Source: a phage. From it: a stretch of 61,452 bases of DNA. The notes beneath the pieces were generated by a model, which was not told where the DNA came from, searched no databases, and saw nothing but the letters and a program-made list of their open reading frames with translations. The stretch lies in the sequence record PQ826432.1, one strand, 5' to 3'. This document shows, one piece after another, positions 1 through 61,452 of this stretch; position 1 is the stretch's first letter, and the number at the start of each line of letters is the position of its first letter. The translations under genes were made by a program, and so were the position numbers.

Positions 1-77
1 CCACTTCATACGGTTGAATATACGCACGGCTATCCCGAAGATGGAAATCCCCTACCCCGTAATTCATTACCCCGTTC
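1..77. repeat. 77-nt terminal overlap, identical to 61376..61452 (circular-permutation or assembly junction)
   Basis: exact identity of window start and end read directly. Confidence 0.9.
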
Positions 78-578: not shown

Positions 579-2684
579 TTAAACTTTCTCCCTCATCTGA
601 CCATCTGTTAATACCCGATTCCATACTCTAAGGTTTCGTATGTGTCCATATAATTTACTTGAATCGGAATGTCTTCCACCTATTTCTACTAGCGAGTCCG
701 AGTCCGTTCCTTTCCATGTAAAACCGTGTGAGGTCCCCCCCTTATTCCCATTAACAAATGAGGTGACATCTCCATTACCACTAAAAATAAAACCAAATAC
801 ATGTGAAGAAAATTGTTTTTCAAATGAATAACCCCTGGACAATATAGATGATCCATCCTCATTTACCACATACACATAAGGTGTAACGGAGGTTCTGTCA
901 AATTCCGCAACAAATGCTTTTCCTCTTACGTAGTATTGGTTATTATCCATTATCATTGGGTATGTATTATCTAATTGAAAGCTATCCCAGTTAACGCTCA
1001 CTTCAGCAAGGAATGAAATATTTGTCCCTGAGAAATTATTTCTTGCAGGTATAGTAACATAATCCACAGCCCTTGTTGCAGGAGTGCTTCCCGTAATAAT
1101 GAAGGAGGATGCACAAAAACCCTTTTCAAATTGCGGAGTACAAAATGATATTGTATCCCCAACTTGCAAGTTATCCCCGTTAGAGCCGCGAGCATAGTTA
1201 ATACTCCCAATCATGGCACCTGCAATATCAGAAAATTTACATGTTATTTCAACTTTCAGCCATCCATTATCTTCTTTGATGATTCTGTGTGTTACAGTTC
1301 CTCTAGCTTCTAGTGTATATGTCACCTCCCCTGTGTCGCATGACACTATAGATCTTGCAACAAGAATAAGGGCATTATCTTCCCCTAACGCATAGAATTG
1401 AGGAATTATGGAAATATTAGTTGCTTTCACTCTAATAGATAAGGTTGCGTATTCGTTCTGTTCACAATATATGTTGTTATTGTATTCGCAATAAAATAGT
1501 GATGGTGTATCACCTTGACCGTTTTCATTTGCGGTTGCGGTAGTATATGTAAATCCATATTTATCAACGCCGTAGGTAACGTCGCTACGATACTTATCAC
1601 TATTCAATGAAGATGGGTCATTGCTGTAAGTTATGTGGTTTGTCCTCTGCCCTTCAATTAAGAGTCCTTGCTTTTCAAATCTAGGTTCATCTATACCGGC
1701 AATACAAAACTCACCGTGCTTATTTATGTATGTTGCATTTGATGCACGCGAGAAGCTAACAACCTTATCAGAAGGCATTGTAATAACATCTTCACCAACT
1801 GTTATTTTCTTATAGCCTGGCGAGTAACCTGCAAGCATATCAAGCGAGTCATTAAATGGGATCCACACGTCAGGGAAAGGTTGAAGATCCGGAGCCCTGT
1901 TAGCTGCAACTTCCGCACGGTCTGCTTCTGCCTTTGCACGATCCGCGTCGTTTTTAGCTGCGGTTGCGCTTGTACCTGCGTTGCTTGCTTGTTTTCCAGC
2001 TTCGGTGGCGCTATTGCTTGCTTGTGTAGCAGACGCGGCAGCGGCGTCTTTTAGCGCGGTAGTTTCCGTTACTGCACTGTCCTTAATACCCTGTGTGTCT
2101 GCTTTTAACTGCTCAACGTCAGATTTTAGACCTTGAATTGTGGTCACAGCTTGTGATGCAGTATTAGCGGAACCAGCAGCGCCAGCCTGTGCTTGTTTAG
2201 CAGCGTCTTCGCTAGCTTTAGCATCATTTTTATAGACAAGTGCATCCGAAGCAGATTGAGCAGCCGAAGCCTTACTATTGCGAGCGTCCGTAGCATCTGC
2301 GTTTGCCGCCGCAGCAGAGCGACCAGCTTGCAAAGCATATTCTTCAGAGTTAGCTACAAGTTGTTGGACTTGTTTAATAACGTCCGGAGTTAATTCTTCT
2401 GGTGCCCAGTTAATTAAATAACCGTTCAGCGAACCTTCAGGGCTGTCGGAATAAATGACGATCTCACCAGCTTTATAAGGCTCAAGACCCTGCGGCCCAA
2501 TGATTACTTTGTAATGCCCCGCTTGTACAGTTACATTATAAGCACCTTCTCCATCTGTACGAAATACAGCCTCGCTACCATTAAGAACGGTAATTGTGTT
2601 CCCTTTTGCTAAAAGAGCAACGGTAGCGTTAACAATCGGTTTATTTAAACCATCTGTCAAAATACCATATAAACGAGTTGCCAT
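579..2684 (-). CDS. tail fibre protein (Ala-rich coiled-coil shaft, beta-rich C-terminal domain)
   Basis: ORF track 579..2714; start moved to ATG at 2684 (AGAGG SD; track start is TTG); composition typical of phage fibres. Confidence 0.65.
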   Translation of the reverse strand: MATRLYGILTDGLNKPIVNATVALLAKGNTITVLNGSEAVFRTDGEGAYNVTVQAGHYKVIIGPQGLEPYKAGEIVIYSDSPEGSLNGYLINWAPEELTPDVIKQVQQLVANSEEYALQAGRSAAAANADATDARNSKASAAQSASDALVYKNDAKASEDAAKQAQAGAAGSANTASQAVTTIQGLKSDVEQLKADTQGIKDSAVTETTALKDAAAASATQASNSATEAGKQASNAGTSATAAKNDADRAKAEADRAEVAANRAPDLQPFPDVWIPFNDSLDMLAGYSPGYKKITVGEDVITMPSDKVVSFSRASNATYINKHGEFCIAGIDEPRFEKQGLLIEGQRTNHITYSNDPSSLNSDKYRSDVTYGVDKYGFTYTTATANENGQGDTPSLFYCEYNNNIYCEQNEYATLSIRVKATNISIIPQFYALGEDNALILVARSIVSCDTGEVTYTLEARGTVTHRIIKEDNGWLKVEITCKFSDIAGAMIGSINYARGSNGDNLQVGDTISFCTPQFEKGFCASSFIITGSTPATRAVDYVTIPARNNFSGTNISFLAEVSVNWDSFQLDNTYPMIMDNNQYYVRGKAFVAEFDRTSVTPYVYVVNEDGSSILSRGYSFEKQFSSHVFGFIFSGNGDVTSFVNGNKGGTSHGFTWKGTDSDSLVEIGGRHSDSSKLYGHIRNLRVWNRVLTDGQMREKV

Positions 2685-2808
2685 TTTTACCTCTTGTTTC
2701 GCAGAGTTGATCAATTAATGGATGCACTATGGCATACAAATATGGTAAATTAAATTAGAATATAAAACAATATTGTCTATCATCTTTAACCACATTGTTG
2801 GAGTAATT

Positions 2809-3774
2809 ATGCCAGAGGGTATTTATATAAACTACAATGACGGCAGGCCTGCAATGCAGATAACAGCAGGATTACGCGCCCCGTCTTTTTGCGCCAACTT
2901 CAATCAACGCTGTCAATCCGATAAAACTCTAACCATCAATACACCTTTAACGCCGGGATCGCAGCTTATCGTTGTTATGACTAACCCCGTTGAAGTATTA
3001 GAAGTATTTGATCAGACGCTAGTTATCCCTGATCCAATGTATGTAACGTCTGTAACTCGAAACGGTGACGGTGGGGTGACGTTGCGAGGCGCGGATGGAC
3101 TTGGCGCTTATAGTGGATTGCCGCAATGGGCAGGGGTAATTATGGAAGTGTTACCTGTAGGAACGCGAAACGAGGGTCTATTTGTAGCTAACTCCACGGA
3201 CTTCACAGCAATATCCAACGCAGCCTTTCTCATGACTTGTCAGTATTCCCAGTACGTATGGGTTAACGGCAGTATGCCATTACCTGTCGGTGGTGTTCCG
3301 TTTGCTCGCTGGAACGACCCTAACGTATCAGTAGGTTTTGATGGTTCGAATATTATCGTTCGCAACGCAGCATATGGTGGAATTGATGACGTATCAGCTT
3401 CTGTTGGGATGGAATTAGTAATATTTAATAACACTCCCCCACAGCCTGGTGATGGTATTACCATGACGAACAGCGCGGGGCAGGTTACGTTCTCCACGGT
3501 TAAGAAGCCTTTTGTATTCAACGGAACAGTAGATCTTAGCGCGGGCTGGCAAAATATTGGTAACAGCTTAATACAACTTGCATACACAGGCACGCTTATT
3601 GAGAACAACGGGGGTTATAATCACATTCGCATGAACGGGATTCGTATGGCGGATAATGTGGTAGGTGCTGCAAGAAACCGCGTGGTAGGCAACTACTCGC
3701 GACAACAATTCCAAATGCCCGGTCGTAACGTGGTAATCTCAACACCGCTCATAGCTATACCAAATATGTATTAA
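2809..3774 (+). CDS. hypothetical protein, opposite-strand gene inside the tail module
   Basis: ORF track 2773..3774; ATG at 2809 with GGAG SD; own terminator downstream. Confidence 0.5.
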   Translation: MPEGIYINYNDGRPAMQITAGLRAPSFCANFNQRCQSDKTLTINTPLTPGSQLIVVMTNPVEVLEVFDQTLVIPDPMYVTSVTRNGDGGVTLRGADGLGAYSGLPQWAGVIMEVLPVGTRNEGLFVANSTDFTAISNAAFLMTCQYSQYVWVNGSMPLPVGGVPFARWNDPNVSVGFDGSNIIVRNAAYGGIDDVSASVGMELVIFNNTPPQPGDGITMTNSAGQVTFSTVKKPFVFNGTVDLSAGWQNIGNSLIQLAYTGTLIENNGGYNHIRMNGIRMADNVVGAARNRVVGNYSRQQFQMPGRNVVISTPLIAIPNMY

Positions 3775-3806: not shown

Positions 3807-6458
3807 TCACCAGCGTCCTACTATGACAACCCCCCCACCGGATAACGGAACGCGAATACCATTACTATCAATTGTAATACCTCCATTTCCGTTGAAACCA
3901 AATTGACCAGCGTTAGCAATGACCGTCCCTCTGACGGTAACGTTATTAAATACGCAATAACCGTCTTTTGTAATTGCCCAACCTTGATCGTTACCATTCC
4001 AGTTATTGGACTGAATAACATTACCAATCTTGGCGTTGGTGATTGAGCCATTCTCAATAAAGGCTTCTTGTAAGAAACTTTGACCGTTTTTAATAGCAAA
4101 AGCAAGCTGTGCTGCTCCCGCTACAGGATTATAAATAGCGAAGTTGTCCGCACTCACCATGAAGTAAGACTGGAATTGACCTCCGCTACCTTCTATACCT
4201 AACTGCATACCGGCGACATATTTATTACCGTTACTATCAATCTGAACTTTTTGTCCCCATTGGGCAGAGAGTTTACCATTAAGATCTGCTAATGCTTGGG
4301 ATTGTTGTTGAACTGTGACTACAACATCCCCGACACTTGTCTGAACAGAATCTATCTTGGAAGCTTGACCTTCTACCACTTTGGATAATTCTGTTACACC
4401 GTCATCAACCTTTTGCACAGTCTCCATGAGGTTTTTGAAAGTCTCAGTTTCTTGAAACTCTTTATCCATGATTTCTATAATCTGTGCGGTTTCTGCCCAT
4501 ACACGAGCTTCAACTTCCACAAACTCGGACGAGCCAAAGGCGTTGATAGTTCTTATATACCAGTAATAAGTGTGGTCATTGAGTAAGTTATTTTTCTGCC
4601 ATATAGTTCCCATACCTTCACGGGTAGCATCACGCTCAACAACATCTGTATTAGCAGATGCCAGTTTTGTTTCACCAGACGTCCAGAAATCAAATTGCGT
4701 GCTAACACTAGTCAGCTCTGCAATCTTTGGTATAAGAGTTAAAGAAAAATAACCGTTCTGTATCTCGACAGATGAAGGCGGCGGTGGAGCTTGAATATTA
4801 AACTCCAGATAAGCTTCCGGTGATATTGCACCGCTGTGAGATACAGCTTGAACGTGCGCAGTATACGCCCCACGAAGCAGCCCAGTAACACGAACGCTTT
4901 GGCCAGGGACTTGTGCGGTCCAAATAGTAACGCCTCCCTGTCGCACAGCTACGCGGTTATATGCGACTTGCCCCATGTTTGTCCAGGATAATACCCCCTG
5001 TACCACATCACTGATTTGCAATATCTGGTATTGAAGATTTTGAGGTTGAGCAACACCACCACTTGGCAAGTCTACAAGATCCGGTCTGTCCATAGGTTTA
5101 CCAATTGCATCGTCCCACATTTCCAGGAAATCTTGACGTAATGTAAGGTTAACACCACCTTTAGGGTTAAAAGACCATTTGGTAACGCGCATTTCAACAT
5201 TCTTCATGCCAATCTGCGTGATGGTAACTTTTACATACATTCCTGGACGGAACTTATAACCCTTCATGTTACAAGGGATTTCAATTGTACGTCCAACACG
5301 TTTACGACGTAGAATAATATTAGACAAACGTTGTGCCTGATATTCACTAGTTACAAAACGAAAATCCATGTCCTGAGTTATTTCCCCGCCATCCTTTTCC
5401 ACCCATTCCTTAACCACAACTGGAGGGAAGTCTGCTTCAACGTAGTTCTGCTTCGGATCAATAAATGTCCCTGTGATGGTGTTTGTGCGCTCCTTATAAG
5501 AAGTCTCTGGAACAATCTTAATATCCCCAGCAATACAACTTTCGTCCAGCGTCATTGTTGCTGGACCGTAATATGCGCCAACCAGAAGACCGTGTTTACC
5601 CGCCACATACGTTAGCTCGCCGCCACAAGCTTGCAACATAGCATCCAGAATTTTGGAGGGGGCTTCATCTACTTCAAATTCACCGTTAATTTTATAACGG
5701 CGCTCTGTAGAACCATCAGCGTTATTGACGTATTCATCACAGATGTTAGCAGCTTCTTTGAACTGGTCCCAGTTAATATCTTCATCTTTTCGCTTTAAAT
5801 ACGTGCGGAAGTAATCAAGTATTACTAAAGCTGCATTATCGCTAAATATGGTATAGCCAGAACGAGGATCATATACACGGCGTCCTCTTTTAAGAAGCTT
5901 AATGTTTGGCAAACCAGAAGGGAATTTTTCTGCATTAAATTTAAAGCTAATGCGAAGCCATGCAATCCCTTTCCCAATCATATCCTCTTTCCAGGAAGGG
6001 CAATTGCTTAACATGAATGGATCTACAGTCTGACGGTCGTTATGAAATTCCCAAGTAACATACTGTTCGAAAGTCTGTACAAGATCATCCCCAAGCCAAA
6101 TATCACCAATCCCCTCCAATGGATGTGAAGCTACAACAAGCGCCATATGCAGGAGTTCGTCTTCGTCTTGATCACCAGGCTGCTCCTCGGCAAACGTCAT
6201 AACACCGGAAGCAACCGTTGTCCCGTATACTACTGTTCGGGACGCTGCGGCTGCTCGTAAAACCTGCTTACGCTCTTGTTGGCCTTTATAAGCATTAAAG
6301 TTCATATTAGGTGTCTTAGTTAAAAGAGCACCTGCCGCAGTTGCAGCCATACCAATAGCCAAAGCTACGCCCGTAGCAATCCACCCCGCCGCAGCGGCAG
6401 CGGAAGCACCTAAAGCTATTGCTGCTCCAATTATTGCTGGTGGCATTAGACCCTCCAA
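3807..6458 (-). CDS. tail tip / host specificity protein, lambda J-like
   Basis: 883 aa; segments YYWYIRTINAFGSSEFVEVEA and FNIQAPPPPSSVEIQNGYF recall lambda gpJ by memory; position after minor tail genes; true start uncertain. Confidence 0.75.
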   Translation of the reverse strand: MEGLMPPAIIGAAIALGASAAAAAGWIATGVALAIGMAATAAGALLTKTPNMNFNAYKGQQERKQVLRAAAASRTVVYGTTVASGVMTFAEEQPGDQDEDELLHMALVVASHPLEGIGDIWLGDDLVQTFEQYVTWEFHNDRQTVDPFMLSNCPSWKEDMIGKGIAWLRISFKFNAEKFPSGLPNIKLLKRGRRVYDPRSGYTIFSDNAALVILDYFRTYLKRKDEDINWDQFKEAANICDEYVNNADGSTERRYKINGEFEVDEAPSKILDAMLQACGGELTYVAGKHGLLVGAYYGPATMTLDESCIAGDIKIVPETSYKERTNTITGTFIDPKQNYVEADFPPVVVKEWVEKDGGEITQDMDFRFVTSEYQAQRLSNIILRRKRVGRTIEIPCNMKGYKFRPGMYVKVTITQIGMKNVEMRVTKWSFNPKGGVNLTLRQDFLEMWDDAIGKPMDRPDLVDLPSGGVAQPQNLQYQILQISDVVQGVLSWTNMGQVAYNRVAVRQGGVTIWTAQVPGQSVRVTGLLRGAYTAHVQAVSHSGAISPEAYLEFNIQAPPPPSSVEIQNGYFSLTLIPKIAELTSVSTQFDFWTSGETKLASANTDVVERDATREGMGTIWQKNNLLNDHTYYWYIRTINAFGSSEFVEVEARVWAETAQIIEIMDKEFQETETFKNLMETVQKVDDGVTELSKVVEGQASKIDSVQTSVGDVVVTVQQQSQALADLNGKLSAQWGQKVQIDSNGNKYVAGMQLGIEGSGGQFQSYFMVSADNFAIYNPVAGAAQLAFAIKNGQSFLQEAFIENGSITNAKIGNVIQSNNWNGNDQGWAITKDGYCVFNNVTVRGTVIANAGQFGFNGNGGITIDSNGIRVPLSGGGVVIVGRW

Positions 6459-21618: not shown

Positions 21619-21924
21619 CTATTTAGGCTGAATATAATTGCTTGATCCTACAAAATCAAGCGAAACATTTTCAGCTTCATAGCGTATGATTTCCTTAACC
21701 CTTAGCTTACATTCAGTCAGAGCAGTTTCTGTATCCTGTAAACGTCGGATAATATCTCTTGTGTAAACCAAAGGAATTTTCTCAACTTCCCGACATTCTA
21801 CCAACAGATGAGCTGGAAGTTTTATCTTCACTATCTGTGGAGCTGGGGGAGGTTGAGTCTGCGTCGAGCAACCTGCGCAAATCATCAGGAATACGCTCGT
21901 TAAGATAAGCTTTGACGTCAGCAT
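21619..21924 (-). CDS. o-spanin (Rz1-like lipoprotein), overlapping i-spanin
   Basis: internal ATG; hydrophobic signal ending in Cys (LMICAGC), Pro-rich segment; out of frame with i-spanin 3' end. Confidence 0.45.
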   Translation of the reverse strand: MLTSKLILTSVFLMICAGCSTQTQPPPAPQIVKIKLPAHLLVECREVEKIPLVYTRDIIRRLQDTETALTECKLRVKEIIRYEAENVSLDFVGSSNYIQPK

Positions 21925-22258
21925 TGCTTTTCTCCAGTGTCCGCAACTTGTCCTGAAGCAACTTGTGGTTATGTTGTTCATCTTGAATTGCAGAAGTTAG
22001 TTTCTTGAAAGAGTCCGTGTCCTTCTCCCTTTGTGCAGCAAGAAATACAACAGCCTCGCCCAGCTTTGCATTGTCTTTCTCCACAACGGTTAAACGTTCT
22101 TCAGCCAAACTTAAATTTGATTTGTTAAGCTCGTTCTGTGACCACAGGTGGGCAGCCACCCCGCATAAAAACACCACCGCGCCAATCATCAGGTACTCGA
22201 TAAATAGACGCGGTTTAGCTTTTATAAAACTGAAGAAGTTATTTAGAATCATTTTCAT
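21782..22258 (-). CDS. i-spanin (Rz-like)
   Basis: N-terminal TM helix then coiled coil; follows holin. Confidence 0.55.
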   Translation of the reverse strand: MKMILNNFFSFIKAKPRLFIEYLMIGAVVFLCGVAAHLWSQNELNKSNLSLAEERLTVVEKDNAKLGEAVVFLAAQREKDTDSFKKLTSAIQDEQHNHKLLQDKLRTLEKSNADVKAYLNERIPDDLRRLLDADSTSPSSTDSEDKTSSSSVGRMSGS

Positions 22259-22583
22259 GTTTGCAGTCCTCTGAGTCGAGTTTGATCCCTGTCCGCAATG
22301 CTAGAAGCGACTTTAGAGCTTTTAGCGTAGCACGTGAACCCGCCCAAGCGAATAGGCCAGCAAGGCCAAAAGCGAACCAAAGGCTGATATTAAACTCCCT
22401 GTAGATCGCGTACATTATAACGCCAAAGAACGCGGCGGATAAACCTTCAAGACATGCAATGCTTATCCGTACCTTCTTACCAGCGTCAATTGTACGCATG
22501 ACGTAACCGAGAGCTCCCCCAATGAGGGAAATCAGAGCAAACCCCGCTAGAACTGCCCAATGTTCGTTCGATGAGTTGAACAT
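22239..22583 (-). CDS. holin
   Basis: ORF track 22239..22616; start moved to ATG 22583 with GGAGGG SD; about three hydrophobic helices. Confidence 0.55.
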   Translation of the reverse strand: MFNSSNEHWAVLAGFALISLIGGALGYVMRTIDAGKKVRISIACLEGLSAAFFGVIMYAIYREFNISLWFAFGLAGLFAWAGSRATLKALKSLLALRTGIKLDSEDCKHENDSK

Positions 22584-22600
22584 GTTCCCTCCAATAAAAA

Positions 22601-22614
22601 GGGGCTGACGCCCC
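22601..22614 (-). terminator. short hairpin plus U-run between endolysin and holin (possible attenuator)
   Basis: minus strand GGGGC-GTCA-GCCCC followed by TTTTT, then holin SD. Confidence 0.3.
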
Positions 22615-22619
22615 ATCAG

Positions 22620-57642: not shown

Positions 57643-57644
57643 AG

Positions 57645-57664
57645 AAAGGGGCGTTTGCCCCTTT
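57645..57664. terminator. bidirectional terminator at convergence of plus and minus blocks
   Basis: AAAGGGGC/GCCCCTTT stem, loop GTTT. Confidence 0.55.
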
Positions 57665-57671
57665 TCTCTTC

Positions 57672-57875
57672 TTAGAATATAGGAAAGAAAGCACCGTATG
57701 GGTATACGCTAAAAGTATTGAAAACAGGCGGTGCAAAAGCATTCACAAACACCGGAGTTGGCGCTACTGGTTGAAACGTCTTGCAATTACACGCTGCTTG
57801 AGCCAATTGCCCCTGAAGTATACCTGCTTGTGTTGCGGGACTGCCTAAACAGCAACGGTTAGTATTACCACACAT
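57672..57875 (-). CDS. small Cys-rich protein (67 aa)
   Basis: ORF track; five Cys in first 31 residues, Pro/Phe-rich C-terminus. Confidence 0.4.
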   Translation of the reverse strand: MCGNTNRCCLGSPATQAGILQGQLAQAACNCKTFQPVAPTPVFVNAFAPPVFNTFSVYPYGAFFPIF

Positions 57876-57886
57876 AGTAGACCTCC

Positions 57887-58171
57887 TTAAAGGTCGCTTT
57901 CGTTATCCTGCTTGGAACTGGGCTTTTCGGCTTCAATTATCCCAAGTACCGCAATAACTTTAACAGCAATACGCTGAGCTAGACTGATTTGCTGCTGGGT
58001 TAATTTTCCGGTCGACACCACCGTCATTAACCCGCTTAAGTTTCCAAGCGACTTGAAATCGCTGAATGCGGATTTCATAATAGTAAGTTGATCATGACCT
58101 TCATCTGCTATAACATGAGCGCGAATAGAAAGCCCTTCAACAACTTTATCAATACCTTCATTCTTCGTCAT
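57887..58171 (-). CDS. hypothetical protein (94 aa)
   Basis: ORF track. Confidence 0.4.
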   Translation of the reverse strand: MTKNEGIDKVVEGLSIRAHVIADEGHDQLTIMKSAFSDFKSLGNLSGLMTVVSTGKLTQQQISLAQRIAVKVIAVLGIIEAEKPSSKQDNESDL

Positions 58172-58688
58172 TTGGTTTTACCTTCTGCTCCGGTTTCTGA
58201 GGGGCCGTTTGAGCGGTCTTCGGCTGCAACACTTCCTGATCAATCATTGGTGGCCACGGACTAATATGTTCCCGGGCTTCTACAGGTTGCTCCGGTTGCA
58301 CGCCAAGAAACTTATTAATAAAATCACCTGCAAAGTCTGTACCATCGCTGACGTAAACGTGCATACGATCAAGATCAGACTGACTAATGGAGTTTGGAGC
58401 GATCGTGATTTTAAACTGGTGGAAGCCGACATACATCACATTCACGGGTCGTTCGATAGTGCCCGGCGTAGGCGGTATCACTCCCATAATCCAACAGTAA
58501 TGAACCCTTCCATCACCCATAGGTTCACAGCCAGCATTAAGCCAGCTCACCTTCTGGTGTGGGAACATGGTAGTTGAATCGGTAGCGTCCCGACGTAACG
58601 TCCAATCAACACCGCCCATGTTGATGGAGTTTTTCGGTTTCATCCCGTTGAACTGGGTTACGCCCATTCCTGCGTTTACGTTTTGCAT
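58158..58688 (-). CDS. hypothetical protein (176 aa)
   Basis: ORF track. Confidence 0.45.
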   Translation of the reverse strand: MQNVNAGMGVTQFNGMKPKNSINMGGVDWTLRRDATDSTTMFPHQKVSWLNAGCEPMGDGRVHYCWIMGVIPPTPGTIERPVNVMYVGFHQFKITIAPNSISQSDLDRMHVYVSDGTDFAGDFINKFLGVQPEQPVEAREHISPWPPMIDQEVLQPKTAQTAPQKPEQKVKPNDEE

Positions 58689-58703
58689 GTCGGCTTCCTA
58701 TTC

Positions 58704-59072
58704 TTACATATCTTTCATTTTTTGAAGAGCGCAAGTACAAGCTGCGGCAAGATCAGTCAACTCTTTCATGATCCCTGCGCGGTCGCCTTCTTTCTTACAC
58801 TCCATTAATTCGCGGTATTCCATTTCAACAATGGACATCATACCGCCGGGCTTGTCGTGGTACGCCGCCCACGTATGCGGAGGTTCTTCCATCCGGTCAA
58901 GAACATCTGACATAGCTGCCATATGTTCATGATCTCGAGCATAAGAGTGAGCATGTTTATATTCCTCTTTCTCATGTTCATGGTGGTGCTCGCCTACGCT
59001 AATGCGAGGTAAAGCAACCTTAGGCAATTTGACCCGTGGCATTCCCATCGTTGCGATTTTAATGTGGCTCAT
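58704..59072 (-). CDS. His-rich protein (122 aa), possible metal-binding or MazG-like helical domain
   Basis: HHHEHEKEEYKHAH segment; C-terminal E..E..KEGD..KEL pattern. Confidence 0.35.
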   Translation of the reverse strand: MSHIKIATMGMPRVKLPKVALPRISVGEHHHEHEKEEYKHAHSYARDHEHMAAMSDVLDRMEEPPHTWAAYHDKPGGMMSIVEMEYRELMECKKEGDRAGIMKELTDLAAACTCALQKMKDM

Positions 59073-59143
59073 GATAGTACCTCTGTTAAAAGCGCCCCAA
59101 GCGGAGGAGCGAAAGGCGCTTTAGTTTAACCACACTTCAACGA

Positions 59144-59851
59144 TTAGCAGCAGCCAGTCGGAGGAGTTGGAGGAGTTGGCAGTTTAAAGTTAACTAACTG
59201 CTCAACCTGATTGATCTTACAAGTAAGACCAGCCGTTTGTGCCAACTGAGAGTTCGCAAAGCGAGCTTCCTGCAACTGGGACTTCAGGTCGCAGATCAGA
59301 ACAGCTTGCGCCTGTGCGTGTTGATCACGGATCAGTGCACGGGTAGCTTCAGCTTGACGCTCGATGTTCAGGTTGGTTTCGCAGCAACACTTCTCGGCTG
59401 CTAACTGTGCCTGGAAAGAACGGGTAATGTTAGCTGCCTCGTTGCTACACAGAGCCGCGAGCACTTGGCTGGTGCCGCCCTGGATTTGCGTGTTCAGACC
59501 AGCAAATCCCTGAACGGAAGCCAGCATATTCTGAGTGTTCTGCTGAGTGATGCCGTTATAGGTAGAAGCAGCAGAGCGCTCAACAGTCAGGTTAGTACCG
59601 TTCTGCCCCTGAATGGTCTGAAGAGTACCGTTGTTAATGGCTTGCAGAATTGCGTTGGTGTCAACAGAAGCTTGAACTTCCACCGGACCAGCGAAGTTAC
59701 CGCGACCACCCCAACCACCATTGCCACCCCAACCGTTACCGATCCAGGAACCAATCAAACCACCGATTGCACCACCGATACCAGCCGCACCAGCTTCACC
59801 GCCGAAACCGTCGCCACCGAGATTAGTAGGTAAAAGAGTCATGTCAGACAT
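59144..59851 (-). CDS. Gly-rich protein with C-terminal Cys cluster (about 235 aa)
   Basis: ORF track 59144..59980 (TTG); ATG 59851 with GGAG SD; GGDGFGGEAGAAGIGG...GWGGNGGWGG tract; ends PTPPTPPTGCC. Confidence 0.45.
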   Translation of the reverse strand: MSDMTLLPTNLGGDGFGGEAGAAGIGGAIGGLIGSWIGNGWGGNGGWGGRGNFAGPVEVQASVDTNAILQAINNGTLQTIQGQNGTNLTVERSAASTYNGITQQNTQNMLASVQGFAGLNTQIQGGTSQVLAALCSNEAANITRSFQAQLAAEKCCCETNLNIERQAEATRALIRDQHAQAQAVLICDLKSQLQEARFANSQLAQTAGLTCKINQVEQLVNFKLPTPPTPPTGCC

Positions 59852-59986: not shown

Positions 59987-60006
59987 AGCGCGCCCGAAGA
60001 CGCGCT
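59987..60006 (-). terminator. rho-independent terminator after tail fibre gene
   Basis: minus strand AGCGCG-8 nt loop-CGCGCT followed by TTTTTT. Confidence 0.55.
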
Positions 60007-60023: not shown

Positions 60024-61452
60024 TTATGGAAGGTTAGTTTGTTGTGAACCATTCGCTTCTTTTAATGCAGCAAGTTCTGTTTCCAATTTCTCCACCTTTT
60101 CCATCAAAGCAAGAATTGCTTCATGATGCAAAGCGGCAGCAACACCATAAGTATCTACACCCTTAACGTCGGAGATCACCTCATTACCACGTAAAGTCAT
60201 GGAGCCCGCATTGAAGACAGCATCTGGGAATACTTTCTCCACATCCTGGGCAATGAAGCCATAGTTAACCTTAGAGTTGTCATGCTTGACACGCCACGAT
60301 ACACCCTTAATGGCGCGCATAGCGCCAAGAGGGTTAGGGATACGTGTAATATCTTCCTTGATACGTTCGTCAGAAGAAGTGCTCCACCCACCCGAACATA
60401 CAGCATTACCACCCTTCAAGAACTGGAAATACTTCTGAGTATCAACACCACCAGACGAAGTGGTCATTAAGGTAATATCGCCCTTCCGTTCGGAGTAGAC
60501 TCGCGCATATACTGTATCATCTGGTGAGACGAAGTCCAAAAACCCTTCGATATCACTACCACGACCCACGATACGCATAAAACTACCCCTGGAACGTATG
60601 ATGCCAGGTACATTTAAGTCACCATCATCGCCGAAGTCAAAGTTCTGAGTAGTACCTAGAGTAGCGTTGTACACTGATACACGGGCCGCATACGTAGAAC
60701 CTATCGTACCGACCATACGGAAATCTGCGGAACCATTCAACTGACTACCAACACGGTACTCACTTATAACACGGCCACCAGTAACAAATGTTGTTGCGGG
60801 CGGTAGTGTGGAATCACTGTTTATCACAGACCATGACGTATTCGCGGCAATGAACCCGCCAGATGCACGTATAACCCAGACGCCGACGAAGTTGCGGCCC
60901 ATAATCTCGTCAGTTGATGCTCCGTAAATTGGACTCGAGCGTGAAGCGTTAAAATTACATGTGTTATATCGACCTGCTAGTGCTGTTGCGCCTCCAGGGA
61001 TTGCATCACCAGCACCATCAGGGAATACGCCATTGTTGGAATAAAATGCACCATAAGATGAACCAATAGCTTGCGCGTAACTCCCACCGGAATAAGAGGT
61101 AAAATAACCAGTAATATTAGGTGCGGCGGATTCAAATAGCTGACCATTTGCACTACTATTCCCACCATCACCACGACCATAAAGAGCGCGTATTGACCCT
61201 TCTTGAACACCATTTTTATCGGGGACACGAAAAGTTGTTGCTCCGTCACCCTTAGAATACTTGCCGCGCTGAAATTTATCAGCCAGCCATTCAGAATCAT
61301 CTATAGCACCCACCATTTGAGCGTAATTCCATAATTCAGGCCAGTCAGCACGATTAAGCAATTGACCGTCAGCGACCACTTCATACGGTTGAATATACGC
61401 ACGGCTATCCCGAAGATGGAAATCCCCTACCCCGTAATTCATTACCCCGTTC
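60024..61452 (-). CDS. tail fibre protein with C-terminal intramolecular chaperone (S74-like) domain; 5' part wraps to 1..301
   Basis: ORF track 60024..61442; C-terminus ...SSDERIKEDI...GFIAQDVEKVFPDAV... then coiled coil; frame open beyond track start to window end. Confidence 0.7.
   Translation of the reverse strand, partial: NGVMNYGVGDFHLRDSRAYIQPYEVVADGQLLNRADWPELWNYAQMVGAIDDSEWLADKFQRGKYSKGDGATTFRVPDKNGVQEGSIRALYGRGDGGNSSANGQLFESAAPNITGYFTSYSGGSYAQAIGSSYGAFYSNNGVFPDGAGDAIPGGATALAGRYNTCNFNASRSSPIYGASTDEIMGRNFVGVWVIRASGGFIAANTSWSVINSDSTLPPATTFVTGGRVISEYRVGSQLNGSADFRMVGTIGSTYAARVSVYNATLGTTQNFDFGDDGDLNVPGIIRSRGSFMRIVGRGSDIEGFLDFVSPDDTVYARVYSERKGDITLMTTSSGGVDTQKYFQFLKGGNAVCSGGWSTSSDERIKEDITRIPNPLGAMRAIKGVSWRVKHDNSKVNYGFIAQDVEKVFPDAVFNAGSMTLRGNEVISDVKGVDTYGVAAALHHEAILALMEKVEKLETELAALKEANGSQQTNLP
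61376..61452. repeat. 77-nt terminal overlap, identical to 1..77
   Basis: exact identity read directly. Confidence 0.9.

What the first reader, a model, noticed from the sequence alone, without database searches (positions are those of the whole stretch)
57672..59851. Five-gene block of unknowns after the tail-fibre terminator
Seen: after a terminator (59987..60006) and a fresh SD, five minus-strand genes run to the convergence terminator: a Gly-rich protein ending in a Cys cluster (PTPPTPPTGCC), a His-rich protein, two unknowns, and a 67-aa Cys-rich protein. None matches a structural or replication family I recognise. Inference: separate transcription unit; Gly-rich tracts plus Cys clusters could indicate an ejected or envelope-targeting protein, a bacteriocin-like factor, or superinfection exclusion.
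Basis: partly seen in the sequence, partly recalled or inferred. Interest (0 to 1): 0.6.

Follow-up and report, generated by a model that had tools for sequence, protein, structure and literature searches.

The report
Tail-fibre-linked lysis-delay gene cassette
The five "unknown" genes are real and sit behind the side tail fibre gene of a CAjan-like (Seuratvirus) coliphage; in the near-identical phage CSP1 the first two were shown in 2025 to delay host-cell lysis together with the tail fibre, so the block is interesting but partly explained already.

Summary
Five tightly packed minus-strand genes (A 235 aa Gly-rich, B 122 aa His-rich, C 176 aa, D 94 aa, E 67 aa Cys-rich) lie between two strong terminators, and all are under purifying selection.

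The window is a complete Seuratvirus genome. Its block is 97-100% identical in protein to that of phage CSP1. There, the lateral tail fibre plus A (CSP1_021) plus B (CSP1_022) are the minimal set for holin-level lysis suppression, and A binds the holin (PMC13577005).

What I add:
- A belongs to a wide family of single-pass membrane proteins: acidic N-tail, glycine-zipper or hydrophobic anchor, a helix of about 155 residues with an invariant CCC, and a Pro-rich tail with an optional Cys cluster.
- B has a MazG-like all-alpha fold with a His-rich tail.
- C is a beta-rich domain with no fold match. D and E are orphans.
- A-B-C-D is a syntenic cassette that follows lateral tail fibre genes across phage families with unrelated holins.
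- A is broken in several cultured isolates.

The parts
59987..60006 (-). Intrinsic terminator ending the lateral tail fibre gene
   Evidence: 8-bp GC-rich stem, UUCG loop, U6 tail, z = -3.9.
59144..59851 (-). Gene A (235 aa). Layout: acidic N-tail, glycine-zipper membrane anchor (GIGGAIGGLIGSWIG), long helix 68-223 with invariant CCC155-157 and C187, then a PTPPTPP tail ending in GCC. Ortholog of CSP1_021.
   Evidence: 100% aa identity to CSP1. The CSP1 ortholog binds the holin and is required for lysis suppression (PMC13577005).
59089..59122 (-). Hairpin followed by UUUU between A and B. Weak terminator or attenuator.
   Evidence: 10-bp stem, -16 to -19 kcal/mol, z only -0.6. The equivalent site is annotated as a terminator in SA126VB.
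58704..59072 (-). Gene B (122 aa). His-rich N-terminal half plus a MazG-like all-alpha domain with E85-x2-E88-x14-E103-x2-D106. Ortholog of CSP1_022.
   Evidence: (profile hit to PDB 2p06, E = 1e-5). 98% identity to CSP1. Required for lysis suppression.
58158..58688 (-). Gene C (176 aa). Confidently predicted beta-rich domain (residues 10-130) plus a disordered P/Q/E-rich tail. Ortholog of CSP1_023. Function unknown.
57887..58171 (-). Gene D (94 aa). Small conserved protein, overlapping C by 14 nt. Function unknown.
   Evidence: Found in 162 phage records. PDB profile hits are spurious.
57672..57875 (-). Gene E (67 aa). N-terminal MCGNTNRCCLGSPATQ motif and an F/P/Y-rich C-terminal half. Largely restricted to Seuratvirus.
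   Evidence: 4 clusters only. A divergent 54-aa homologue sits in the same position in L010/L011. pN/pS 0.1-0.2.
57644..57665 (.). Bidirectional terminator at the convergence with the plus-strand early genes.
60024..61452 (-). Distal lateral tail fibre gene with a C-terminal S74-type intramolecular chaperone domain. The gene continues across the circular junction to window position 301 (550 aa in all). Probable functional partner of A and B.
   Evidence: IMC HMM hits in 19 related loci. The fibre is required for lysis suppression in CSP1.
22239..22616 (-). Holin with three hydrophobic segments. Reported binding partner of A in CSP1.
   Evidence: 99.2% aa identity to the CSP1C holin. The lysis cassette DNA is 96.7% identical to CSP1.

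Best explanation
The block is the accessory cassette of the lateral tail fibre (LTF) module of a Seuratvirus. Its first two genes control when the cell lyses.

**Proposed mechanism.**
- A is a single-pass inner-membrane protein. Its glycine-zipper anchor contacts the phage holin, and its long Cys-bearing helix probably forms an oligomeric coiled coil.
- A acts together with B (a small His-rich, MazG-like all-alpha protein) and with the tail fibre protein made in the same cell. The three keep the holin from triggering, so progeny are released slowly and plaques are turbid.
- C and D are conserved co-travelling partners of unknown role. They are not needed for the lysis phenotype in CSP1.
- E is a lineage-specific small Cys-rich add-on.

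**Shown, in CSP1 only.** The genetic requirement for LTF + A + B; reversal by holin overexpression and by dinitrophenol; and the A-holin two-hybrid signal.

**Shown here.** Orthology, domain anatomy, synteny, selection, and distribution.

**Inferred.** That the same phenotype holds in this phage, which carries a different fibre allele; the N-out/C-in topology of A; a coiled-coil state; and any role for B's putative nucleotide hydrolase activity.
For: **Orthology with CSP1.**
- Protein identity to CSP1 is A 100%, B 98%, C 99%, D 99%, E 97%.
- The holin is 99.2% identical and the lysis cassette DNA 96.7% identical.
- Gene sizes of 708, 369 and 531 bp match CSP1_021, CSP1_022 and CSP1_023.

**Published experiments (PMC13577005).**
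- A 4,672-bp deletion gives clear plaques.
- Only LTF + A + B together restore suppression.
- The three suppress lysis when co-expressed with holin and endolysin.
- Holin overexpression, but not endolysin overexpression, breaks suppression.
- DNP triggers lysis.
- A binds the holin in a two-hybrid assay.

**Anatomy of A.**
- The GxxxG zipper is nearly invariant.
- Distant relatives carry a truly hydrophobic segment at the same place (WIWVILLFVLF, MWFMWIIIMFALM). They have an acidic N-tail and an Arg just after the segment.
- AF2 predicts a single helix over residues 68-223.

**Cost in culture.** A is inactivated independently in several cultured isolates: two nonsense mutations, one frameshift, deletions, and remnants in T5-like phages. 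It is intact in 22 of 22 metagenome-derived close relatives. CSP1 also throws spontaneous clear-plaque deletion mutants.

**A distant relative near lysis genes.** In a low-GC contig, an A-like gene lies three genes upstream of a holin-like gene and an amidase endolysin.
Against: - All functional data come from one paper on one relative. Nothing was measured in this phage.
- The fibre here is a different allele, split over two genes (711 aa and 550 aa), whereas CSP1 has one 1,026-aa protein. No similarity to the CSP1 fibre was detected at E <= 1e-3.
- The cassette does not track the holin. Drexlerviridae, T5-like and eiAU-like phages carry A-D, with A 60-75% identical and the zipper conserved. 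The window's holin family is absent from them. A holin-specific contact is therefore hard to see as the conserved function.
- The block lies about 35 kb from the lysis genes.
- The hydrophobicity of A's anchor is marginal (Kyte-Doolittle 1.27 over 19 residues).
- Two-hybrid signals between overexpressed membrane proteins can be false positives.
- C, D and E have no assigned role.
Confidence: 0.62

Rival explanations
1. The cassette is primarily a tail-fibre accessory module. It would handle or sense the fibre or its cleaved chaperone fragment, or act on the envelope structure that the fibre recognises. On this view the lysis delay is a secondary or laboratory read-out.
For: - A-B-C-D follows a lateral tail fibre gene in Seuratvirus, Nonagvirus, Sashavirus-like, Drexlerviridae and T5-like phages.
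- In JakobBernoulli the fibre plus cassette sits apart from the other tail genes, between the primase and ssb genes.
- Distant A-like genes also follow tail or structural genes.
- The distribution follows the fibre and not the holin family.
- In KurtStettler, a short fibre with its intramolecular chaperone domain is fused in frame to A from residue 19.
- The fibre itself is genetically required for the CSP1 phenotype.
Against: - CSP1C lacks A, B and most of C, yet regains visible fibres when only the fibre gene is supplied.
- CSP1C adsorbs and bursts like wild type on K-12.
- LTF + A + B suppress lysis in cells expressing only holin and endolysin, with no virions present.
- The KurtStettler fusion is a single case.
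Confidence: 0.2
2. One or more of the genes, most likely C, D or E, protect the infected cell or the progeny. This could be superinfection exclusion or masking of the fibre's surface ligand, as Cor and Llp do for other siphoviruses.
For: - The genes sit beside the host-recognition genes, where such functions are often encoded.
- A is membrane-anchored.
- E is a small Cys-rich protein with a hydrophobic aromatic tail.
- Exclusion was not assayed in the CSP1 study.
Against: - No signal peptide or lipobox occurs in any of the five proteins (sequences).
- There are no PADLOC, Pfam or NCBIfam matches.
- C and D have no hydrophobic segment long enough to span a membrane (read from the sequences; no predictor was run on them).
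Confidence: 0.08
3. A is a spanin-like or anti-spanin envelope-spanning protein. It has an N-terminal anchor, a coiled coil, and a Pro-rich Cys-bearing end reminiscent of Rz fused to Rz1.
For: - The architecture fits.
- C212 and the terminal GCC appear and disappear together across the family, as expected for a disulfide.
Against: - The phage already has an i-spanin/o-spanin pair (21782..22258 and 21619..21981).
- The charge distribution predicts N-out/C-in, the opposite of Rz.
- CSP1-infected cells stay rod-shaped or elongated rather than turning spherical, which places the block before endolysin action.
Confidence: 0.04
4. A is an ejected virion protein or a bacteriocin-like toxin.
For: - The Gly-rich N-terminus followed by a long helix superficially recalls the translocation and receptor-binding parts of colicins (own knowledge).
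- The hydrophobic Gly-rich stretch recalls microcins (own knowledge).
Against: - There is no cytotoxic, immunity or export component and no family match.
- Deletion does not affect infection parameters.
- The protein is anchored, with no secretion signal.
Confidence: 0.03

Closest known systems
CSP1 lysis-suppression genes CSP1_020, CSP1_021 and CSP1_022 (Kim & Ryu 2025, PMC13577005)
   Same: - A, B, C, D and E and the holin are 97-100% identical in protein.
- Gene order and terminators are the same.
- A is CSP1_021 (holin-binding, predicted single transmembrane segment). B is CSP1_022. C is CSP1_023.
   Different: - The tail fibre partner is another allele, split into two genes.
- The 14-bp repeat that mediates the CSP1C deletion is present only once here, with one mismatch (58288..58301).
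- The phenotype has not been measured in this phage.
Classical antiholins (T4 RI and RIII, lambda S107, P1 LydB)
   Same: - It works at the holin step.
- It is reversed by collapse of the proton-motive force.
- It includes a single-pass membrane protein that binds the holin (per CSP1).
   Different: - There is no sequence or profile similarity.
- It is encoded about 35 kb from the lysis genes, next to the tail fibre.
- It needs three proteins, one of them a virion fibre.
- It acts at low multiplicity without superinfection and does not increase the burst.
MazG-like / AF0060-like all-alpha NTP pyrophosphohydrolases (PDB 2p06; Pfam PF03819, PF01503)
   Same: - B's C-terminal 60 residues align with 2p06 (E = 1e-5).
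- B carries ExxE...ExxD.
   Different: - Pfam scores stay below the gathering thresholds.
- Only E85 and E88 are conserved across the family.
- B has a His-rich N-terminal extension.
- No enzymatic activity is known.
Transmembrane glycine-zipper proteins (Pfam Rick_17kDa_Anti and Gly-zipper families)
   Same: A has a GxxxGxxxGxxxG motif in a short hydrophobic segment.
   Different: - The only Pfam hit is sub-threshold, in one distant relative (E = 0.046).
- A is not a lipoprotein.
- A has one segment rather than two.

Membership tests
CSP1-type tail-fibre-linked lysis-suppression set | Ortholog of CSP1_021 (membrane protein that binds the holin) | tested here: met
   A is 100% identical over 235 aa to the CSP1 gene product. 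The gene size matches at 708 bp.
CSP1-type tail-fibre-linked lysis-suppression set | Ortholog of CSP1_022 | tested here: met
   B is 98% identical over 122 aa.
CSP1-type tail-fibre-linked lysis-suppression set | Same lateral tail fibre partner (CSP1_020, 1,026 aa with a chaperone domain) | tested here: inconclusive
   A fibre with an S74-type chaperone domain lies directly upstream. It is a different allele, with no tblastn similarity to the CSP1 fibre at E <= 1e-3.
CSP1-type tail-fibre-linked lysis-suppression set | Same holin target | tested here: met
   The holin is 99.2% identical to that of CSP1C.
CSP1-type tail-fibre-linked lysis-suppression set | Turbid plaques or delayed lysis that depend on the genes | not testable with these tools
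   This needs phage genetics.
MazG-like all-alpha NTP pyrophosphohydrolase (for B) | Significant profile match to family members | tested here: inconclusive
   The B-family profile hits PDB 2p06 (AF_0060) at E = 1.1e-5, over the conserved helices plus the His tag. Nine of 48 members hit Pfam PRA-PH and six hit MazG, all below the gathering scores; best E = 3.4e-4.
MazG-like all-alpha NTP pyrophosphohydrolase (for B) | Metal-binding ExxE(12-28)ExxD motif conserved | tested here: inconclusive
   The motif is present in the window protein (E85, E88, E103, D106). Across the family only E85 is invariant and E88 nearly so. Position 106 is D, E or H.
MazG-like all-alpha NTP pyrophosphohydrolase (for B) | NTP pyrophosphatase activity | not testable with these tools
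   This needs an enzyme assay.
Classical antiholins (RI, RIII, S107, LydB) | Sequence homology, or encoded within or next to the holin gene | tested here: not met
   There are no Pfam, PHROG or NCBIfam matches. The block is about 35 kb from the holin.
Two-component spanins (Rz/Rz1) | N-in anchor with a periplasmic coiled coil, plus a lipoprotein partner embedded or adjacent | tested here: not met
   The charge pattern predicts N-out/C-in. There is no lipobox gene in the block. A true spanin pair exists elsewhere in the genome.
Cor/Llp-type superinfection-exclusion lipoproteins | Signal peptide with lipobox | tested here: not met
   None of the five N-termini has a hydrophobic signal region followed by a lipobox Cys (sequences).
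Known anti-phage defence or exclusion families (PADLOC) | Profile match | tested here: not met
   No hit at E <= 1 for any of the five proteins.
Colicin or microcin-like bacteriocins | Toxic domain with immunity and export genes, or a double-glycine leader | tested here: not met
   No family matches. No such neighbouring genes.

The most novel reading that the evidence does not exclude
A-B-C-D may be an ancient, horizontally mobile checkpoint module that travels with lateral tail fibre genes and works independently of holin type. In this reading, the membrane-anchored Cys-rich coiled-coil protein A reads the intracellular pool of unassembled fibre, or its auto-cleaved chaperone fragment. It does so with help from the His-rich MazG-like protein B, and perhaps from C and D. 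The module would hold the membrane in a non-triggered state until fibres are consumed, so coupling virion completion or host-surface conditions to lysis timing. That would be a new class of lysis regulator, shared by Queuovirinae, Drexlerviridae, T5-like and even low-GC siphoviruses.
Probability: 0.15. Interest if true: 0.75.

Novelty: already known. Interest (0 to 1): 0.42.

Why it matters
Lysis timing sets phage fitness, plaque appearance and therapeutic killing kinetics. A lysis brake that needs a virion tail fibre and is encoded beside it is unlike the textbook antiholins.

If the cassette works across phage families with different holins, it would point to a general link between tail-fibre production and cell lysis that has not been described before. 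It would also explain why many freshly isolated siphoviruses give turbid plaques, and why laboratory stocks accumulate mutations here.

In practice, the state of gene A (intact or broken) may predict whether a Seuratvirus or T1-like therapeutic candidate clears cultures.

Tried and rejected
- **Family searches.** Pfam, NCBIfam and PADLOC scans of all five proteins gave nothing above threshold. PHROGs placed each of the five in a family of unknown function; C's tail also gave a weak tail-fibre hit.
- **PDB sequence and profile searches.** A, C and D gave nothing or spurious results. D hit only short repeats of de novo designed TIM barrels. A single-sequence PDB search for B found nothing; only the family profile reached 2p06.
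- **AF2 of A.** The model is one long helix of low confidence (pLDDT 56), so I ran no fold search on it.
- **Homologues of E.** Only four clusters were found.
- **Promoter.** I looked for a sigma-70 promoter after the fibre terminator and found none at the scan's threshold.
- **Virion proteomics.** I found none for Queuovirinae in the paper library.
- **KurtStettler annotation.** The 'lateral tail fibre chaperone' label for the 510-aa protein does not show a function for A. That protein is a short fibre plus chaperone domain fused to A, and it is a single case.
- **JakobBernoulli annotation.** I rejected the 'sugar-binding protein' label. It sits on a fragment of an A gene interrupted by a stop codon.
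Full report
**What the window is.** The region matches about 60 published phage genomes. The best matches are 95-98% identical Seuratvirus phages of the Queuovirinae: ECP2304, RCIP0359, KS_A8, CSP1 and CAjan. The first 77 nt of the window equal the last 77 nt, so it is a circular assembly of 61,375 bp. The gene just upstream of the block is a lateral tail fibre gene with a C-terminal S74-type intramolecular chaperone domain. It crosses the junction: 550 aa, from window position 301 around to 60024. A first fibre gene (711 aa, 579..2714) and an 88-aa gene precede it.

**Checking the observation.** All five ORFs are present as described, and each has a Shine-Dalgarno sequence (read). The upstream terminator at 60006..59987 and the convergent bidirectional terminator at 57644..57665 are strong. 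A weaker hairpin with a U-tract lies between A and B. Genes B to E are packed with gaps of 15, -14 and 11 nt.

Against five related phages, substitutions concentrate at third codon positions. pN/pS is 0.00-0.06 for A, C and D against the five close relatives, and 0.22 for E against the most divergent of them. B has too few changes to score. All five are therefore real genes. No consensus sigma-70 promoter follows the fibre terminator, so 'separate transcription unit' is unproven.

**Known function in a near-identical phage.** Kim & Ryu (2025, PMC13577005) studied phage CSP1. Its block is 97-100% identical in protein to this one. Its holin is 99.2% identical.

- A spontaneous clear-plaque mutant, CSP1C, lost 4,672 bp. 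The deletion covers most of the fibre gene CSP1_020, all of CSP1_021 (708 bp, = A) and CSP1_022 (369 bp, = B), and most of CSP1_023 (531 bp, = C).
- CSP1C adsorbs, has the same latent period and the same burst as wild type, but it lyses cultures. Wild type leaves elongated, unlysed cells full of phage.
- Only fibre + A + B together restore suppression, and they also do so against cloned holin and endolysin.
- Holin overexpression and dinitrophenol both break the suppression.
- A gives a two-hybrid signal with the holin.
- Supplying the fibre gene alone restores visible fibres on CSP1C. A, B and C are therefore not assembly factors.

**Anatomy of A.** A has 170 relatives, nearly all about 230 aa long.

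- *Conserved features*: MSDMTLLPT at the N-terminus; a GxxxG glycine zipper (GGLIGSWFGNG); CCC155-157; C187; and the PTPPTPP tail.
- *Co-varying cysteines:* C212 and the terminal GCC(GC) are present or absent together.
- *Predicted structure:* AF2 gives one helix over residues 68-223 and a disordered N-terminal third.
- *Distant relatives:* members at 27-36% identity, found in IMG/VR, carry a plainly hydrophobic segment at the zipper position. They also have an acidic N-tail, an Arg just after the segment, and C-terminal Cys-Gly clusters.

A is therefore a single-pass membrane protein. By the positive-inside rule it is probably N-out/C-in. The family spans phrog_9288 and phrog_16490, both of unknown function.

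**Anatomy of B.** B has 60 diverse relatives. They share a compositionally His-rich and acidic N-terminal half and a conserved C-terminal half, PPxTW...MEYxEL...ELxDLAAAC. The family profile hits PDB 2p06 (AF_0060, E = 1e-5); by recall, not checked here, that structure belongs to the all-alpha NTP pyrophosphatase superfamily. Several members give sub-threshold hits to PRA-PH and MazG. This agrees with the 'putative pyrophosphatase' label used in the BASEL genomes. The catalytic motif is only half conserved, so enzymatic activity is uncertain.

**C, D and E.**

- D is a small conserved protein with no informative matches.
- E occurs in only four protein clusters. A divergent 54-aa version sits in the same position in two metagenomic contigs.

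**Distribution.**

- A, B and D are found by tblastn in 222, 115 and 162 phage records. These span Seuratvirus, Nonagvirus, Sashavirus, Drexlerviridae, Edwardsiella eiAU and, for A, T5-like phages.
- In the 29 close-to-moderate IMG/VR loci the order A-B-C-D holds in almost all, down to 34% identity of A; L027 has no detectable C and L034 is rearranged. More distant A-like genes are still followed by B-like or C-like genes.
- The gene upstream is a tail fibre with a chaperone domain in 19 loci, and other tail or structural genes elsewhere.
- In the Drexlerviridae phage JakobBernoulli, the fibre plus cassette sits alone among replication genes.
- In the T5-like phage polluks, a broken A gene follows the fibre gene.
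- The window's holin family occurs in Queuovirinae and in some Pseudomonas, Providencia and Klebsiella phages. It does not occur in the Drexlerviridae or T5-like carriers of the cassette.

The cassette therefore tracks the fibre and not the holin. This is the main point that the published antiholin model does not explain.

**A is often broken in culture.**

- SeppeHuegi has CAG to TAG at codon 83.
- JakobBernoulli has CAA to TAA at codon 78.
- Salmonella phage 36 has a frameshift in the glycine run.
- SHIN8 has a CSP1C-like deletion.
- KurtStettler has an in-frame fusion of a chaperone domain to A.
- Phage 2019SD1 is rearranged.

All 22 metagenome-derived close relatives are intact. My sample of isolates was partly chosen for its oddities, so this is suggestive only. 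It fits a gene that slows lysis and is selected against when plaques are picked.

**Verdict.** The best explanation is a tail-fibre-linked lysis-delay cassette, with A and B as the active parts (confidence about 0.6). The main rival is that the conserved role concerns the fibre itself and that the lysis delay is secondary (about 0.2). Exclusion, spanin-like and bacteriocin or ejected-protein readings have little or no support.

The element is already known in kind, through a 2025 study of a near-identical phage. Still open are the mechanism, the roles of C, D and E, and the independence from holin type.

Noticed in passing
window 1-77 and 61376-61452: The first 77 nt are identical to the last 77 nt. 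The window is therefore a circularly closed assembly of 61,375 bp. The distal tail fibre gene (550 aa) spans the junction, from position 301 on the minus strand round to 60024.
   Followed up: yes
L001 (SeppeHuegi) 5649-6353; L005 (JakobBernoulli) from 4815; L025 (Salmonella phage 36) 5723-6519: Gene A is inactivated independently in cultured isolates. The lesions are an amber codon at codon 83, an ochre codon at codon 78, and a frameshift in the glycine run. In the public records these appear as two 'hypothetical' ORFs or as a 'sugar-binding protein'.
   Followed up: partly
L002 (KurtStettler) 4646-6178: A 510-aa ORF fuses a short fibre (N-terminal anchor plus S74 chaperone domain) in frame to A from residue 19. 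It is annotated as a 'lateral tail fiber chaperone'. It is a single case and may be a deletion artefact.
   Followed up: partly
window 22239-22616 compared with cassette carriers: The window's holin family is absent from the Drexlerviridae, T5-like and eiAU-like phages that carry the A-D cassette. The cassette's distribution follows the lateral tail fibre and not the holin.
   Followed up: partly
L043 5770-8148: In a low-GC metagenomic phage contig, a distant A-like gene with a truly hydrophobic anchor lies after a DGR reverse transcriptase. It sits three genes upstream of a holin-like gene and an amidase endolysin.
   Followed up: partly
window 2773-3774 (+): A 333-aa ORF lies on the opposite strand between the J-like tail tip gene and the fibre genes. 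Related phages have a 77-aa gene at this position, annotated as a lipoprotein in SHIN8 (and as hypothetical in SeppeHuegi and CSP1). It may be a receptor-binding or exclusion locus.
   Followed up: no
window 58288-58301 (-): The 14-bp repeat GTGCAACCGGAACA mediates the CSP1C deletion. It is present inside gene C with one mismatch and has no partner in this phage's fibre gene. The same spontaneous deletion route is therefore unlikely here.
   Followed up: yes
L007 (Salmonella phage polluks) 4752-5342, and about 100 other T5-like records: T5-like Epseptimavirus genomes carry only decayed remnants of A after their fibre gene. Many matches cover just residues 149-202 and are unannotated.
   Followed up: partly
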